A stretch of DNA of 59,778 nt, taken from the sequence record OL960575.1. One strand, written 5' to 3'. A model generated the notes under the pieces. The model saw only the letters and a program-made list of their open reading frames with translations. It made no database searches and was not told the DNA's origin. Shown in pieces: positions 8,729 to 13,583 of the stretch; position 1 is the stretch's first letter, and every line of letters begins with the position of its first letter. Both the position numbers and the translations under genes were made by a program. The DNA comes from Escherichia phage vB_EcoS_SA80RD.

Positions 8729-9652
8729 ATGGCTACAGGTTCACGTTATTCGTGTTACTACGTCAAAGAAGATGTAAGCAACACTACGCCAGCGAATGCG
8801 AAGTTTACTCCGTTCCGTGTGACCAGCTCCGGTCTGGACATTAATATTGCAACGTTGGAATCTGAAGAACTGCGCGATGACGCCGAAACTGCGGATTTCC
8901 GCCTCGGTGCTCGCAGTGTTGAAGGCACAGTAACGGGCGAAATGTCCTTCGGCACCTTCGATGATCTTATTGCTGCTGCACTTCGTGGGGAGTGGCAAGA
9001 AAACGTCCTTAAAGGCGGTATTGTCCGTCAGTCGTTTACTTTCGTAGACTATAACGCAGATCTGCCGTCAGGTAAATATACAATTTATCGCGGTTGCGAA
9101 GTTAATAGCATGACTTTCTCATTGTCTGCGGAAAACATGACCACAGTGGAATTCGGCATTGTTGGTCGCTCAATGGAAATTGCGGAATCGCTCCCATCCG
9201 GTGCAACTATCAAAGAGCGTACAACTACGTCACCGATGGATGGTTTCTCCGGTCGCTTGCTGGAAAACAACGAAGAAATCAGCGTTATTACGGAAATCGG
9301 TCTTACCGTTGAAAACGATATTGCGCCGCGCTTTGTTGTTGGTTCTAAGTTCTCCATTGAACCGTCCGCTGGTCGTCGTGCGGTAACTGGTACAGCTAAC
9401 GTGTACTTCCTGGATAACAAGCTGCGTATGAAGTATCTGGATGAAGTGGAAACTTCAATCAAGTTTGATCTGATTGACCCAAGCAATCCGGAACAAAAAT
9501 ACACTGTGGAAATCCCTCGCGTGAAATTCACTGAAGCTCCACGTCCTATTGACGGTGAAGGGGATATCATGCTTAATATGGGCTACCGCGGATTGCTGGA
9601 CCCAACAACCGCAAGTTCCATCAAAATTACCCGCGTTCTAGCGGCAGAATAA
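8729..9652 (+). CDS. major tail protein
   Basis: 307 aa; RBS AAGAGAGGA; position immediately upstream of chaperone and tape measure. Confidence 0.55.
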   Translation: MATGSRYSCYYVKEDVSNTTPANAKFTPFRVTSSGLDINIATLESEELRDDAETADFRLGARSVEGTVTGEMSFGTFDDLIAAALRGEWQENVLKGGIVRQSFTFVDYNADLPSGKYTIYRGCEVNSMTFSLSAENMTTVEFGIVGRSMEIAESLPSGATIKERTTTSPMDGFSGRLLENNEEISVITEIGLTVENDIAPRFVVGSKFSIEPSAGRRAVTGTANVYFLDNKLRMKYLDEVETSIKFDLIDPSNPEQKYTVEIPRVKFTEAPRPIDGEGDIMLNMGYRGLLDPTTASSIKITRVLAAE

Positions 9653-9661
9653 GGATAAGAG

Positions 9662-10069
9662 ATGACCGACACCAAAAAAGCCAAAGTTGCAGTAGCTAAA
9701 AGCTTCCGTGATTTTAAAACTGTGAGCCGGGCAAACGACCCAGCAAACACTAAGCCGATGAATGTGGTTATTCCTGGTGTAGGCGACACTGGCGAAAAAC
9801 TCTACATTCGTAGCCGCTACTGCACAGAGTACCGTGATGCTGAACTGAAAGCACAGCGTCAACTGTTGGCGCTTATGCAGGGTAAAGACGGTGAAGTAAC
9901 GGATGCTATGAAGGAAGATATCCTTACCCGTTCACTGTGTAACCTTGTAGCTGGTTGGACTTTTGACGAGCCACCGACTGTTGACAACGTGTTTGAGTTC
10001 TTAACGGAGAACCCAACTGTCCGAGAAGATCTTAACGTATTTGCCGCTAAAGATAGTAATTTTTTCTAA
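9662..10069 (+). CDS. tail assembly chaperone (G-like)
   Basis: 135 aa ending ...KDSNFF at a TTTTTTC slippery heptamer; between major tail protein and tape measure. Confidence 0.6.
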   Translation: MTDTKKAKVAVAKSFRDFKTVSRANDPANTKPMNVVIPGVGDTGEKLYIRSRYCTEYRDAELKAQRQLLALMQGKDGEVTDAMKEDILTRSLCNLVAGWTFDEPPTVDNVFEFLTENPTVREDLNVFAAKDSNFF

Positions 10070-10467
10070 AAGCGCGCAGACAGTTAATTGATAAGAAGAT
10101 CCTCCAATGGGAACTAAATAGCAAAGTCCCCGGCGGGGGATCTTCTTTATTATCGCAACTGCAAAAGGTTGAGGAACAGTCTGGTAAGACGCCGCCTAAG
10201 CTTAAAGAATATCGGGAAAAGGAAATACCGATTTGCTTTGAATACCTGTCTACTTTATTTGATGACATTTACACGGGAGGGGATTTTAGTTATACAGAAT
10301 TGCACAGCTATCAGGCAACAATGGGCTTACATCTTCAACCGTACGAATGCGAAATACTGCGGCAGCTATGGCTTGAAAAGCGCGTGTCTGAAGCTGAACA
10401 AAATGCTAAACTCATGGAAAGTCAAATGCAAAATCAAAATAAAGGTAGAAGAAAAAGGAGAAGATAA
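9662..10467 (+). CDS. tail assembly chaperone -1 frameshift fusion product (GT-like)
   Basis: Slippery heptamer T_TTT_TTC at 10060-10066; the -1 frame is open for 133 codons from 10066 to a TAA at 10465-10467 that overlaps the tape measure ATG. Frame checked codon by codon. Confidence 0.5.
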
Positions 10468-13400
10468 TGGCCGAAACCGCTTCGCTAGTAATCAGAGTTG
10501 ACGCGAGAGGGATTAGTACCGCGGACTCTATGTTGCGGAACTTAGCGCGTACAGGTGACACAGCGGAGCGGTCTGCTCAACGTGTTACCTCCAGCTATAA
10601 AACATTGTCTAACACATCTAACGAACTTGCAACTGTCACAAGTCGTTTGGATGCTGCAATTGTAGGAATGATTAGCGTTGACACTATTAGCCGTGTTATA
10701 TCGCTATCGGACTCCTGGACTATCCTCACCAACAAACTTGAACTGGCTCGTACGGGTAATGAAACTGTTGCGGATGCGCAGCAACGCGTGTTTGATATTG
10801 CCCAGCGGTCACGTACAAGCTTGGAAGCAACTGCAACTCTATATTCCCGTCTCCAGCGTGCAATGAAGAATACTGGTATGACTGGTATGGAGCTTGGACG
10901 TATCACTGAAACAATCAACAAAGCGATGATTGTTTCCGGTGCAACGTCACATGAAGCAAGCGCTGCCCTTATTCAGTTTTCGCAAGCAATGGCGTCCGGT
11001 GTTCTGCGTGGGGACGAATTCCGATCCGTTGCAGAACAAGCGCCCCGCTTAACTCAAATCATGTCCGATGCGTTAGGTGTTACCATTGGACAATTGCGTG
11101 AAATGGCTTACAGCGGCAAGTTAACCGCCGATGTGGTTATCAAATCGTTGTCCGGTGCTGCGGATACAATTGATAAAGAATTTAGCCGCACTATGCCAAC
11201 GTTCAACCAGCAATGGACGATTGCAACAAACAACCTGACTAAATTTATGGGTGAGTCCCAAAAGACTCAAGGTGCGGTTGCTGCATTGGGACAGACGTTT
11301 GTTGCATTATCCGAAAACTTAGGAACGGTTGTAACGGTTGGTTCAGCTTTAGCCACAGTGATTACTGCCCGTATCATTACGGCAATGCTTGCTAAGACTA
11401 AAGCGTCTATAGCTGCTGCAAAAGCATCACAGATGGAAGCTGCACAAACGGCGGCAACTACTGCGGTGATGCAAAGCTCTATTGGCGTTACCGCGCAGAA
11501 AGCGGCTGCGGATCGTGCTGCTTCGCTTGCAGCGTTACAGGTTGCTCGCGGGTCATTAGCGGTTGCTAAGGGTACGGCAGCGGAAGCAGGTGCACGTCTT
11601 GCGCTTATTAACGCTACCCGTGCGCATTCGGCAGCAATTATGGCGGACGTACAAGCGCGGCAAGCGCTCAATGCTGCGCTTAATGCAACTGTACCAGCCG
11701 CAAGCCGGGCAGCTACAGCAATGAGCGTGCTGCGCGGTGCTATGGGGTTAATTGGCGGTCCGGTTGGTGTAGCAATGCTGGCAGCGGGTGCAATTTACTC
11801 CTATAAAGCGTCATTGGAAGCTGGTCGTGCGGAAAACAATCAGTTTGCGGATAGTGTTGATACTGTACGCGATAAACTGATGCAGATGACAGAAGCTCAG
11901 TTGGCAGCTAACGCAGTTAAAGCTCGCGCAATTCTCCCCGAACTTGAAGAGCAAATGAAGCGGGAGCAAACTGCTCTTAAATCTGCAACGGAAACGCAGA
12001 AGTTCTATGAAGCACAATTAAAACGTCGTGCTGCGTCCGGTCGTGATACAGCCAGTGCTGAAAAGAATTTACAAATTGCAACGGATAACGTCAAGCTTGC
12101 TGCGGAGCGTGCTGAAGAAGCTCAACGCCGTTACAACAATGTCTTAGAAATGACAAGCCCTGCTATCGAGAAGATAATTCCGTTAGCTCGTCAGCTTGCT
12201 GCGGATATGAAAGCAGTGCTTAATATCAAATCCGGTCCGCTTATTGACGAGAAAGTGCTTGATCGTTTTAAAGGTCAGTTAGGTGACGTTAACCGCGAAA
12301 TTGATGTTAACACTGTTAAAGGTGCGGGTAATGCTCGCCAGGCCGCAATCCTTAGTGGGCTGTATCAAACTCTGGGCAAAGATGCAGACACCTACGGAAG
12401 TCTAATTCGCAAAGTAGCTATGGGGCAGGATGTTAGCTCTGAAGCAACAAGCGAGTCCGCAAAAGAACTTGTTAAATATGCTCAAGAGCTAGCGGAAGCT
12501 TACGGCAAGAATTATGATCTCGAGGAAGCGGAGCGGAACCGAACTAAAGCGACAAAAGACGGTATTAAAGCAGAACAACAGAACGCCAAAGTTATTGACG
12601 ATTTACGGAACAAGCTTAACGAAGTAACTACAGGAGTTAAAGAAAACGCTAAAGCTAAAGCGCAAGCTGTGGCGCTTAATAAGCTCAATGCGTCTGCAAC
12701 GGCTGCGGAAAAAGCGGAAGTTGTTAGTCTTGCTGCTGCAATCTACGATGCAGAAGAAGCTCAAAAGAAACTGGACGAGCGTAAGAAGAATCGTAAGTTT
12801 GCTCAGGGTCTGTTAGATGAAGGTATGACAGACTATGAAAAAATCGCGTACGAGCAAAATACTAAGATTGCTGAGCTTACTGCTAAACAACGAGCAGATG
12901 ACCTAGCTTACTATCAACTTTATGAGGATGCCAAAACTCAAGTCCTGAAGAAAGCAAGCATGGAAAGGGAAAATCTGGATAAAGTTCTTATGAACCGAAT
13001 GATATCCTTTTCTCAGGAATCCTTGGGTATTATACTGTCAGGGCTGGAAGAAGGTGTTAGTAAACAGAACTTTATTTATAAGGCAATGTTTGCTGCACAG
13101 AAAGCAATGCAAATCCCGTCAATCCTTGCCAACACGGAGACAGCGGCATCAGCGGCGCTTGCGTGGGGTACACAGCAAGGCGGTGCTACAATGGGCGCAG
13201 CTATGGCTGGTATAGTGAAAGCTATGGGTTATGCGTCTGCTGCTACTGTGGGTGGCTTAGCAATCGCTGGTATGGCGCATGACGGTATTGATAATGTTCC
13301 GCGCGAAGGTACATGGTTATTGGATAAAGGTGAACGTGTACTTAATGCCCCGTCTAATGACAAGTTAAACCGCTTCCTGGATAGCCAAGCTTCACAACAA

Positions 13401-13583
13401 GGTGGCGTGAATATGTCTGGTGGTGTTAACATTGTCCAGTATATCACGGTGCAAGGGAATGGCGATGCTGCACTCACGCAAGCCATGCAGCAAGCGGCTC
13501 GTGATGGTGCGGAGCAGGGATATAATAAAGTTCTTACAGACTTTGCATCCCGAGGAACAATTCGTAGAACTGCAATGGGGTAA
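10467..13583 (+). CDS. tail tape measure protein
   Basis: 1038 aa, Ala/Gln-rich coiled-coil character, classic position after the chaperone. Confidence 0.85.
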   Translation: MAETASLVIRVDARGISTADSMLRNLARTGDTAERSAQRVTSSYKTLSNTSNELATVTSRLDAAIVGMISVDTISRVISLSDSWTILTNKLELARTGNETVADAQQRVFDIAQRSRTSLEATATLYSRLQRAMKNTGMTGMELGRITETINKAMIVSGATSHEASAALIQFSQAMASGVLRGDEFRSVAEQAPRLTQIMSDALGVTIGQLREMAYSGKLTADVVIKSLSGAADTIDKEFSRTMPTFNQQWTIATNNLTKFMGESQKTQGAVAALGQTFVALSENLGTVVTVGSALATVITARIITAMLAKTKASIAAAKASQMEAAQTAATTAVMQSSIGVTAQKAAADRAASLAALQVARGSLAVAKGTAAEAGARLALINATRAHSAAIMADVQARQALNAALNATVPAASRAATAMSVLRGAMGLIGGPVGVAMLAAGAIYSYKASLEAGRAENNQFADSVDTVRDKLMQMTEAQLAANAVKARAILPELEEQMKREQTALKSATETQKFYEAQLKRRAASGRDTASAEKNLQIATDNVKLAAERAEEAQRRYNNVLEMTSPAIEKIIPLARQLAADMKAVLNIKSGPLIDEKVLDRFKGQLGDVNREIDVNTVKGAGNARQAAILSGLYQTLGKDADTYGSLIRKVAMGQDVSSEATSESAKELVKYAQELAEAYGKNYDLEEAERNRTKATKDGIKAEQQNAKVIDDLRNKLNEVTTGVKENAKAKAQAVALNKLNASATAAEKAEVVSLAAAIYDAEEAQKKLDERKKNRKFAQGLLDEGMTDYEKIAYEQNTKIAELTAKQRADDLAYYQLYEDAKTQVLKKASMERENLDKVLMNRMISFSQESLGIILSGLEEGVSKQNFIYKAMFAAQKAMQIPSILANTETAASAALAWGTQQGGATMGAAMAGIVKAMGYASAATVGGLAIAGMAHDGIDNVPREGTWLLDKGERVLNAPSNDKLNRFLDSQASQQGGVNMSGGVNIVQYITVQGNGDAALTQAMQQAARDGAEQGYNKVLTDFASRGTIRRTAMG

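What the first reader, a model, noticed from the sequence alone, without database searches (positions are those of the whole stretch)
10060..10467. Programmed -1 ribosomal frameshift in the tail assembly chaperone gene
The chaperone ORF ends ...AAT TTT TTC TAA, giving the slippery heptamer T_TTT_TTC at 10060-10066. I translated the -1 frame codon by codon from 10066: it is open for 133 codons and ends at a TAA (10465-10467) that overlaps the tape measure ATG. The ORF track instead reports a different-frame ORF at 10169-10501 that looks non-genuine. This is the conserved G/GT arrangement of long-tailed phages, supporting the tail module calls.
Basis: partly seen in the sequence, partly recalled or inferred. 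Interest (0 to 1): 0.4.

Follow-up and report, generated by a model that had tools for sequence, protein, structure and literature searches.

The report
Tail chaperone G/GT -1 frameshift
This is the ordinary, already annotated programmed -1 ribosomal frameshift that lets a Seurat-like E. coli phage make a short and a long tail-assembly chaperone from one gene, followed by a conserved RNA hairpin whose role is untested.

Summary
ORF G (9662-10069, 135 aa) ends AAT TTT TTC TAA. The heptamer T_TTT_TTC (10060-10066) is in register. The -1 frame opens at 10060, just after a TAA at 10057-10059, and runs 133 codons from 10066 to a TAA (10465-10467) that shares one base with the tape measure ATG.

The window is a Seuratvirus, 97.6% identical to phage CAjan. 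GenBank already annotates the same site in phage Seurat as "tape measure chaperone, ribosomal slippage". The -1 segment matches Pfam Phage_TAC_18 and evolves as coding sequence. In 86 of 86 homologous loci, down to about 25% protein identity, the T segment lies in the -1 frame, and 75 have a canonical slippery heptamer in the overlap. The competing ORF 10169-10501 is spurious, because all 12 close relatives have a stop inside it.

One addition: a stable stem-loop (10089-10152) starts 22 nt after the heptamer. It is stronger than synonymous recodings in 8 of 8 lineages. It lies in a 112-nt stretch almost free of variation among 13 genomes. Its function is inferred, not shown.

Verdict: real, supported, already known, low interest.

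The parts
8729..9652 (+). Tail tube (major tail) protein gene, immediately upstream of G
   Evidence: Pfam PF18906 Phage_tube_2, E 2.9e-41. Relatives annotate it as tail subunit or tail tube protein.
9652..9655 (+). Shine-Dalgarno-like AGGA upstream of the G start codon (ATG 9662-9664)
   Evidence: Sequence read. The corresponding position is annotated as a ribosome binding site in Seurat.
9662..10069 (+). Gene G: tail assembly (tape measure) chaperone, 135 aa, the product of normal decoding
   Evidence: ORF list. PHROG 569 positions 11-126 (E 2.8e-26) and PHROG 313 'tail assembly chaperone' (E 3.2e-11). Pfam Phage_TAC_4 is below its cutoff. Substitutions are biased to third positions.
10057..10059 (+). 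TAA stop in the -1 frame. It is the upstream limit of the region where a shift can be productive.
   Evidence: With the 0-frame stop at 10067, the productive overlap is exactly 10060-10066.
10060..10066 (+). Slippery heptamer T_TTT_TTC (U_UUU_UUC), the two Phe codons at the end of G
   Evidence: It is conserved as TTTTTTC in homologues down to about 25% protein identity. Other family members have AAAAAAG, TTTTTTA/TTTAAAG, AAATTTT, or near-heptamers that keep T_TTT. F134 and F135 are invariant or nearly so. U_UU.U_UU.C is among the efficient -1 motifs in E. coli (PMC4066793).
10067..10069 (+). 0-frame TAA stop of G, directly abutting the heptamer (a possible 'shifty stop' context)
   Evidence: The stop directly follows the heptamer in the window, Seurat, CAjan, Skure, yong3, 9g, HdK1, K9PH25C2, L016 and L017. 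It lies 4-115 nt downstream in other family members.
10066..10467 (+). T segment: 133 codons in the -1 frame plus TAA. It is translated only as the C-terminal half of the GT fusion (268 aa; 9662-10066 joined to 10066-10464).
   Evidence: Pfam PF23812 Phage_TAC_18, E 1.9e-9, 38 bits against a cutoff of 27. PHROG 569 positions 130-256, E 2.4e-46. Against Seurat 12 of 14 substitutions, and against Skure 26 of 37, fall on third positions of this frame. The frame is intact in 12 of 12 close relatives.
10089..10152 (+). Stable interrupted RNA stem-loop inside the T coding sequence, 22 nt 3' of the heptamer. The outer stem has 17 pairs interrupted by one bulged base.
   Evidence: MFE -30 to -34 kcal/mol, z -3.5 to -3.7 against dinucleotide shuffles. 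It is the most structured 70-nt stretch in the scanned tube-G-T-TMP interval. It is more stable than 299 of 300 synonymous recodings. Analogous hairpins occur in 8 lineages whose arm sequences differ between genera. No Rfam family reaches its threshold.
10049..10160 (+). Zone of suppressed sequence variation covering the heptamer, the spacer and the stem-loop
   Evidence: Only 2 variable sites in 13 Seuratvirus genomes, against 16-22% variable sites in flanking coding sequence. At third positions the counts are 2 of 31 against 229 of 545, Fisher p 3.6e-5. Site 10101 C>T turns a C-G pair into U-G, and 10122 lies in the apical loop.
10456..10460 (+). AGGAG Shine-Dalgarno for the tape measure gene, inside the end of T
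   Evidence: Sequence read. The corresponding position is annotated as a ribosome binding site in Seurat.
10467..13583 (+). Tape measure protein gene (1038 aa). Its ATG shares one base with the T stop (TAATG).
   Evidence: ORF list. Pfam PF20155 TMP_3, E 7e-60.

Best explanation
Programmed -1 ribosomal frameshifting produces two tail assembly (tape measure) chaperones from one start codon. Most ribosomes read 9662-10066 and terminate at TAA 10067-10069, giving G (135 aa).

A minority slip back one base on U_UUU_UUC (10060-10066). This could be tandem slippage of the two tRNA-Phe. It could also be slippage of the P-site tRNA-Phe from UUC to UUU while the A site waits on the UAA stop. Both routes give the same protein. 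The next codon read is CUA at 10066. Translation continues for 133 codons to TAA 10465-10467, giving GT (268 aa, junction ...DSNFF-LKARRQ...).

By analogy with lambda gpG and gpGT, the G part would coat the tape measure protein. The T part would recruit the tail tube protein encoded just upstream. Neither protein would end up in the virion.

Shown here: the sequence anatomy, coding selection on the -1 frame, family membership of T, and conservation of the frame relation and slippery site. Inferred: that the shift occurs, its efficiency, the chaperone roles, and any stimulation by the adjacent stop codon or by the conserved stem-loop at 10089-10152.
For: - Anatomy: the 0/-1 overlap is exactly the heptamer. 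No start codon exists in the T frame before 10300.
- The same site in Seurat (96% nt identity) is annotated as a joined CDS, 'ribosomal slippage (10236)'.
- T matches Pfam Phage_TAC_18 above its cutoff. The G and T halves match the N- and C-terminal halves of PHROG 569.
- Substitutions in T fall on third positions of the -1 frame: 12/14 and 26/37.
- In 86 of 86 homologous loci T is -1 relative to G. 75 have a canonical X_XXY_YYZ in the overlap, and the rest keep T_TTT on the same Phe codon.
- Predicted fusions from 10 lineages align without gaps across the junction, with the FF motif conserved.
- Gene order is tube, G, T, tape measure.
- U_UU.U_UU.C is an efficient -1 motif in E. coli (PMC4066793). 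G-T frameshifting is widely conserved in long-tailed phages (PMC5009743).
- A structured, variation-poor RNA segment follows the site.
Against: - There is no direct evidence of the fusion protein or of a shift frequency for this phage or, as far as I found, for any Seuratvirus. The Seurat announcement only names the chaperone.
- The strong hairpin starts 22 nt after the heptamer, outside the 5-9 nt spacing of classical stimulators. Only a weak 4-bp basal helix starts at 9 nt, and it is broken in Skure.
- No SD-like sequence lies 6-17 nt upstream (read).
- RNAalifold finds no common-register structure across genera.
- The hairpin folds equally well on the minus strand.
- G's match to a curated Pfam TAC family is below its cutoff.
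Confidence: 0.93

Rival explanations
1. Transcriptional slippage. RNA polymerase adds one extra U on the T6 run (10060-10065) in a fraction of transcripts. Ordinary translation of those mRNAs then yields the same GT fusion.
For: The site is a homopolymer run: T6 here and T7 in 9g and K9PH25C2. The product would be indistinguishable at protein level.
Against: By my own recollection (not checked here), known bacterial slippage sites use runs of about 9 or more A or T, so six is short. Family members use AAATTTT, CAATTTT or GGTTTTT at the same position. These have runs of only 4-5 but keep the tRNA re-pairing logic. The run is always in X_XXY_YYZ register with the 0 frame, which transcription would not require.
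Confidence: 0.03
2. No fusion is made. The downstream frame is expressed on its own from an internal start (TTG 10300 or ATG 10321), as several GenBank relatives annotate with a 48-aa ORF. The sequence from 10070 to about 10300 would then be non-coding.
For: BASEL phages, Greed, KS_W4 and Skure annotate short separate ORFs in this frame. ORF 10300-10467 appears in the mechanical ORF list.
Against: The Pfam Phage_TAC_18 match covers T residues 35-104 (10168-10377), and the PHROG 569 match starts at T residue 6. Both lie upstream of those starts. The 0-frame ORF 10169-10501 that would otherwise occupy this stretch is interrupted by a stop at codon 50 or 54 in all 12 close relatives, whereas the -1 frame is intact in all 12. 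Homologues align from the heptamer onward. The frame is open exactly from the heptamer.
Confidence: 0.02
3. The hairpin at 10089-10152 has nothing to do with frameshifting. It could be an RNase III or mRNA-stability element, a partial terminator that lowers expression of T and the tape measure gene relative to tube and G, or a DNA palindrome bound by a protein. This rivals only the stimulator sub-claim, not the frameshift itself.
For: The 22-nt spacer is non-canonical. A terminator-like inner hairpin with a T-rich tail lies at 10126-10151. The long near-perfect duplex resembles RNase III substrates (my own knowledge). It folds equally well on both strands. A second family-wide structure trough lies near the tube/G boundary, which suggests transcript-level punctuation in this operon.
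Against: The T-rich tail is absent in 9g, K9PH25C2, Vid5 and EC151. Across 40 non-redundant family members the structure trough tracks the heptamer. In many distant members a helix starts 4-9 nt after it, which is classical stimulator geometry. The variation-poor zone runs continuously from the heptamer through the hairpin.
Confidence: 0.35

Closest known systems
Escherichia phage Seurat CPT_Seurat13/14 (KM236243; AIW03877/AIW03876), 'tape measure chaperone', ribosomal slippage at 10236
   Same: The sequence is identical from the last 30 nt of G through the heptamer, the stop and the next 12 nt. Geometry is the same: G 135 aa, T 133 codons, and a TAATG junction with the tape measure gene. The fusion is 98.9% identical at protein level.
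   Different: It is a different isolate, about 96% nt identity over 9000-11500. Most other relatives, including the closest one (CAjan), do not annotate the join.
Bacteriophage lambda gpG/gpGT -1 frameshift (Levin, Hendrix and Casjens 1993; Xu, Hendrix and Duda 2004, 2013, 2014; reviewed in PMC5009743)
   Same: Two overlapping ORFs lie between the major tail gene and the tape measure gene. A -1 shift occurs at a heptamer near the 3' end of G, and the long product shares its N-terminus with G. The expected role is chaperoning the tape measure protein and recruiting tube subunits.
   Different: The heptamer is U_UUU_UUC (tRNA-Phe) rather than G_GGA_AAG (tRNA-Lys). Here the 0-frame stop directly abuts the heptamer, and the overlap is only 7 nt. 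No sequence similarity to lambda G or T was tested or claimed. The T part belongs to Pfam Phage_TAC_18. A strong conserved hairpin follows at 22 nt, whereas by my recollection the lambda site needs no defined structure.
E. coli dnaX and IS3-family -1 frameshift signals (heptamer plus 3' hairpin or pseudoknot at 5-9 nt, sometimes with an upstream SD)
   Same: There is a slippery heptamer followed by a stable, selectively maintained RNA structure. Distant members of this chaperone family have helices starting 4-9 nt downstream.
   Different: In the window the strong helix starts 22 nt downstream, and no upstream SD-like element is present. Stimulation is untested. No Rfam frameshift element matches.
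'Shifty stop' frameshift sites (Weiss et al. 1987, as cited in PMC5009743)
   Same: A slippery run is immediately followed by a stop codon. A slow-to-decode A site could therefore favour P-site slippage (for the concept).
   Different: Stop adjacency is confined to the Seuratvirus/Nonagvirus-like members. Other family members keep the heptamer with the stop 4-115 nt away. The stop is therefore not essential to the family's mechanism.

Membership tests
Lambda-type G/GT tail assembly chaperone frameshift (Xu, Hendrix and Duda 2004) | Two consecutive ORFs located between the major tail (tube) protein gene and the tape measure protein gene | tested here: met
   Tube gene 8729-9652 (PF18906), G 9662-10069, T 10066-10467, tape measure gene 10467-13583 (PF20155).
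Lambda-type G/GT tail assembly chaperone frameshift (Xu, Hendrix and Duda 2004) | The second ORF overlaps the 3' end of the first in another frame (usually -1) and lacks its own plausible start | tested here: met
   The -1 frame is open from 10060. There is no ATG, GTG or TTG in that frame until 10300. The overlap is 7 nt.
Lambda-type G/GT tail assembly chaperone frameshift (Xu, Hendrix and Duda 2004) | A slippery sequence in the overlap, in register with the 0 frame, that allows tRNA re-pairing | tested here: met
   T_TTT_TTC at 10060-10066 is the only in-frame X_XXY_YYZ in G. The motif class is efficient in E. coli (PMC4066793).
Lambda-type G/GT tail assembly chaperone frameshift (Xu, Hendrix and Duda 2004) | The arrangement is conserved among homologues despite sequence divergence | tested here: met
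   86 of 86 loci have T in the -1 frame. 75 of 86 have a canonical heptamer, and the others have a near-heptamer with T_TTT.
Lambda-type G/GT tail assembly chaperone frameshift (Xu, Hendrix and Duda 2004) | Both segments are under protein-coding selection and belong to tail assembly chaperone protein families | tested here: met
   T matches PF23812 Phage_TAC_18 at 38 bits against a cutoff of 27. G matches PHROG 313 'tail assembly chaperone' at 3.2e-11 and PHROG 569, but Pfam Phage_TAC_4 reaches only 14.3 bits against a cutoff of 21.1. Substitutions are biased to third positions in both segments.
Lambda-type G/GT tail assembly chaperone frameshift (Xu, Hendrix and Duda 2004) | Two proteins, G and GT, are made in a fixed ratio. 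Both are needed for tail assembly and are absent from virions. | not testable with these tools
   This needs proteomics, reporter assays and genetics. I found no experimental data for Seuratvirus.
Classical bacterial -1 PRF cassette (heptamer plus 3' structure at 5-9 nt, with or without an upstream SD), as in dnaX and IS3 | A stable 3' hairpin or pseudoknot beginning 5-9 nt after the heptamer | tested here: not met
   The main stem starts at 10089, giving a 22-nt spacer. Only a weak 4-bp helix (10076-10079 with 10159-10162) starts at 9 nt, and it is disrupted in Skure.
Classical bacterial -1 PRF cassette (heptamer plus 3' structure at 5-9 nt, with or without an upstream SD), as in dnaX and IS3 | An SD-like stimulator 6-17 nt upstream of the heptamer | tested here: not met
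   10043-10059 reads GCCGCTAAAGATAGTAA. It contains no GGAG, AGGA or GAGG.
Any described RNA family (Rfam 15) | A covariance-model match at or above the gathering score | tested here: not met
   The best hit is 26 bits against a gathering score of 85. The hits are generic miRNA-hairpin models.

The most novel reading that the evidence does not exclude
The conserved stem-loop that begins 18-28 nt after the heptamer in Seuratvirus, Nonagvirus and related Queuovirinae-like phages (10089-10152 here) may be a real regulator of the G:GT ratio. It would act at a spacing too long for the classical tension-at-the-entry-channel mechanism, perhaps together with the abutting stop codon. Alternatively it may set the expression of T and the tape measure protein at the mRNA level. 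Either way it would be an undescribed cis-element attached to a textbook frameshift.
Probability: 0.25. Interest if true: 0.4.

Novelty: already known. Interest (0 to 1): 0.15.

Why it matters
The main value is for annotation. The closest relatives (CAjan, the slur phages, the BASEL phages and others) either leave 10070-10467 unannotated, call a 48-aa fragment, or label G a "tape measure protein". This window should carry a joined CDS, 9662..10066 plus 10066..10467, and ORF 10169-10501 should be dropped. The call also anchors the tail module: terminator, tube, G/GT, tape measure.

Biologically it is one more instance of a very widespread mechanism. The only mildly new element is the RNA hairpin and the zone of suppressed synonymous variation downstream of the slip site. 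This gives a simple, testable case of whether tail-chaperone frameshifts in coliphages use 3' structures at non-canonical spacing.

Tried and rejected
- **ORF 10169-10501 as a real gene:** rejected. It has no Pfam or PHROG match. Substitutions would be mostly non-synonymous in that frame. It is interrupted at codon 50 or 54 in all 12 close relatives.
- **A +1 frame product:** rejected. The +1 frame is open for only 5-9 codons in the middle of the interval.
- **A consensus RNA structure across genera (RNAalifold on 14 sequences):** none found. The hairpins are positionally analogous, but their registers differ by 1-5 nt between genera. I therefore did not build a covariance model or run a formal covariation test. 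Compensatory pairs between 9g and K9PH25C2 (C-G to U-A, A-U to G-C) were read by eye.
- **Assigning the hairpin to the plus strand from energies or G-U pairs:** inconclusive.
- **Rfam:** nothing near threshold.
- **PDB sequence search with the fusion:** no meaningful hit. Structure prediction was not run, because the usable alignment contains sequences the tool would refuse and the result would not change the verdict.
- **Literature:** I found no experimental report on frameshifting in Seuratvirus or Nonagvirus.
- **Intrinsic terminator reading of 10126-10151:** flagged by the scan. The T-rich tail is not conserved in other genera.

Full report
**Observation**

- ORF 9662-10069 (135 aa) ends ...GAT AGT AAT TTT TTC TAA.
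- TTTTTTC occupies 10060-10066 in X_XXY_YYZ register. It is the only in-frame heptamer of that form in the ORF.
- From 10066 the -1 frame reads LKARRQLIDKK... for 133 codons and stops at TAA 10465-10467.
- The last A of that TAA is the first base of the tape measure ATG (10467-13583).
- The -1 frame is closed by TAA at 10057-10059. A productive shift can therefore happen only within the seven bases of the heptamer. The sequence itself fixes the shift site.

On chance, the heptamer alone is not enriched: there are 11 copies in the window against about 21 expected. A 135-codon open frame at this stop frequency has a probability of about 9e-4. The comparative data below make chance irrelevant.

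**Identity of the window**

The region is 97.6% identical to Escherichia phage CAjan and 94-97% identical to about 30 other Seuratvirus genomes (Queuovirinae).

In phage Seurat (KM236243) the same site is already annotated. CPT_Seurat13 is "tape measure chaperone, ribosomal slippage (10236)", and CPT_Seurat14 is a two-piece joined CDS ending at the tape measure start. Mapped to the window, that join is at 10063, inside the heptamer.

Most other records do not annotate the join.
- RefSeq CAjan calls G a "tail length tape measure protein" and leaves T blank.
- The BASEL phages, Greed and KS_W4 call a 48-aa ORF corresponding to 10321-10467.
- Skure calls a TTG-initiated fragment.

**Is the -1 segment a real coding sequence joined to G?**

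- The T segment matches Pfam PF23812 Phage_TAC_18 (E 1.9e-9, 38 bits, cutoff 27) over residues 35-104. This corresponds to 10168-10377, well upstream of any start codon in that frame.
- G matches positions 11-126 and T matches positions 130-256 of the 256-position PHROG 569 profile. That profile is therefore built from full-length fusions.
- G also matches PHROG 313 "tail assembly chaperone" (3.2e-11). Its Pfam Phage_TAC_4 match is below the cutoff.
- Against Seurat and GottfriedDienst, 12 of 14 substitutions in T fall on third positions of the -1 frame. Against Skure the count is 26 of 37. Read in either other frame, most of these changes would alter the protein.
- The -1 frame is intact in 12 of 12 close relatives.
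It is an accident of this genome.

**Comparative test**

tblastn of the predicted fusion finds two-piece matches in 118 phage records. I read 15 of them in detail. They span Seuratvirus, Nonagvirus (9g, HdK1), EC151, Vid5, Providencia PSTCR4, Salmonella PMBT28, Klebsiella VLCpiS6a, and Pseudomonas PaMx11 and ZQG1.

All 15 have the T ORF in the -1 frame, ending at or within a few bases of the tape measure start. All have an in-frame TTTTTTC in the overlap, except EC151, which has TTTTTTA/TTTAAAG.

I then added 72 IMG/VR loci and scored stop-to-stop ORFs with separate G and T profile HMMs.
- 86 of 86 loci with both halves have T at -1.
- 75 have a canonical heptamer in the overlap: TTTTTTC in most, otherwise AAAAAAG, TTTTTTA/TTTAAAG or AAATTTT.
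- The remaining 11 have CAATTTT or GGTTTTT at the same Phe codon. These keep the shift-prone T_TTT tetramer.

Predicted fusions from ten lineages align without gaps through the junction, with F134 invariant and F135 nearly so. Variants with no long homopolymer run argue for ribosomal rather than transcriptional slippage.

**Context**

Gene order is tail terminator (PF13554), tail tube (PF18906), G, T, tape measure (PF20155). This is the canonical location for the G/GT pair. AGGA and AGGAG ribosome binding sites precede G and the tape measure gene. Nothing comparable precedes T.

**Mechanism**

The best-supported mechanism is -1 programmed ribosomal frameshifting on U_UUU_UUC. It yields G (135 aa) and, at low frequency, GT (268 aa).

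Two routes give the same product (...NFF-LKA...):
- tandem slippage with UUU in the P site and UUC in the A site;
- P-site slippage of UUC to UUU while the A site holds UAA.

U_UU.U_UU.C belongs to the efficient H_HH.U_UU.Y class in E. coli, and U_UU.C is the second most shift-prone tetramer (PMC4066793).

The functional reading comes from lambda (PMC5009743) and is inference here. In that model G coats the tape measure protein, T recruits the tube protein, the G:GT ratio is about 30:1, and neither protein is in virions.

**Possible stimulators**

1. *The adjacent stop codon.* The 0-frame stop abuts the heptamer in Seuratvirus, Nonagvirus and their near relatives. It lies 4-115 nt away in other family members. 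A "shifty stop" contribution is possible but is not a family requirement.
2. *An upstream SD-like element.* None lies 6-17 nt upstream.

**The downstream stem-loop**

Nucleotides 10089-10152 form an interrupted stem-loop. The outer stem has 17 pairs interrupted by one bulged base. MFE is about -30 kcal/mol and z is -3.5 to -3.7. It is the most structured 70-nt window in the scanned tube-G-T-TMP interval.

Analogous hairpins occur at the same place in yong3, 9g, K9PH25C2, L016, Vid5, EC151 and L021, with arm sequences that differ between genera. In all eight lineages the native sequence is more stable than at least 299 of 300 synonymous recodings of the same peptide.

Across 40 non-redundant family members the mean z-score profile has a trough for windows starting +10 to +40 from the heptamer.

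Among 13 Seuratvirus genomes, 10049-10160 contains only two variable sites. One (10101 C>T) converts a C-G pair to U-G, and the other (10122) is in the apical loop. Elsewhere 16-22% of sites vary. At third positions the counts are 2 of 31 against 229 of 545, p = 3.6e-5.

There are caveats.
- The strong stem begins 22 nt after the heptamer, and 18-28 nt after it in related genera. This is outside the classical 5-9 nt. Many distant family members do have helices starting at 4-9 nt.
- Registers differ between genera, so RNAalifold finds no consensus.
- The element folds equally well on the minus strand.
- An inner hairpin with a T-rich tail looks terminator-like here but not in other genera.
- No Rfam family matches.

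I conclude that an RNA-level (or palindromic DNA-level) constraint is real. Its link to frameshifting is plausible but unproven.

**Comparison with known systems and novelty**

This works like lambda G/GT and meets every membership criterion that sequence can test. It is the same feature already deposited for phage Seurat.

It differs from lambda in three ways: the heptamer, the 7-nt overlap with an abutting stop, and the downstream hairpin. It does not fit the classical dnaX/IS3 cassette geometry.

As a finding it is already known. Its practical value is a correct joined-CDS annotation and removal of ORF 10169-10501. The hairpin is a small, testable add-on.

**Scores**

- Confidence in the frameshift model: 0.93.
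- Interest: 0.15.
- Most novel non-excluded reading: the long-spacer hairpin as a real regulator of G:GT, or of expression of T and the tape measure protein. Probability about 0.25, interest 0.4 if true.

Noticed in passing
window 10126-10151, both strands: A terminator-like motif, GTCCCCGGCGGGGGAT followed by CTTCTTTATT, lies inside the T coding sequence. It is an alternative fold of the 3' half of the long stem-loop. The minus strand also scores. The T-rich tail is not conserved in 9g, K9PH25C2, Vid5 or EC151.
   Followed up: partly
family-wide, 330-360 nt upstream of the heptamer (roughly window 9700-9800, near the tube/G boundary and the 5' part of G): There is a second trough in mean folding z-score (about -1.6) across 39-40 non-redundant family members. 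HdK1 annotates a putative terminator between the tube gene and G. This may be transcript punctuation after the abundant tube gene. The window itself was not among the strongest cases.
   Followed up: no
window 10352-10501 and 11132-11221: Two further stretches show low variability among 13 Seuratvirus genomes, with 3-5 variable sites per 60 nt against a typical 10-16. The first spans the end of T, the tape measure ribosome binding site and its start. The second lies inside the tape measure gene. The cause was not examined.
   Followed up: no
GenBank/RefSeq relatives: L002, L003, L015, L088-L095: Annotation of this locus is inconsistent. G is variously called 'tail length tape measure protein', 'hypothetical protein' or 'tape measure chaperone'. 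T is missing, is a 48-aa fragment, or is a TTG-initiated fragment. KS_W4 also calls the spurious 0-frame ORF, truncated at 10169-10318. Among the records I read, only Seurat has the joined CDS.
   Followed up: yes
IMG/VR loci L066, L068, L070, L072-L075, L081, L084, L086, L087: These family members lack a canonical X_XXY_YYZ. The 19-88-nt overlap carries C_AAT_TTT_A or G_GTT_TTT_A at the conserved Phe codon. The P-site re-pairing would be imperfect, so the shift may rely on the T_TTT tetramer alone. Their AAATTTT-type relatives, and the one of these loci that was folded (L080), have very stable hairpins (-34 to -47 kcal/mol). Three of the four start 6 nt downstream and L080's starts 1 nt downstream.
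   Followed up: partly
window 10085-10091 (TAATTGA; alignment A3 columns 26-32): The motif TAATYGA is nearly invariant across Queuovirinae-like members. It encodes L/V-I-D/E in the T frame. It also places a second 0-frame TAA and a +1-frame TGA just before the stem-loop. This may be only a consequence of the conserved peptide.
   Followed up: no
window 10169-10501: The 110-aa 0-frame ORF is uninterrupted only in this genome. All 12 close relatives have a stop at codon 50 or 54. The long ORF that misled the ORF track is therefore a lineage-specific loss of a stop codon in a non-coding frame.
   Followed up: yes
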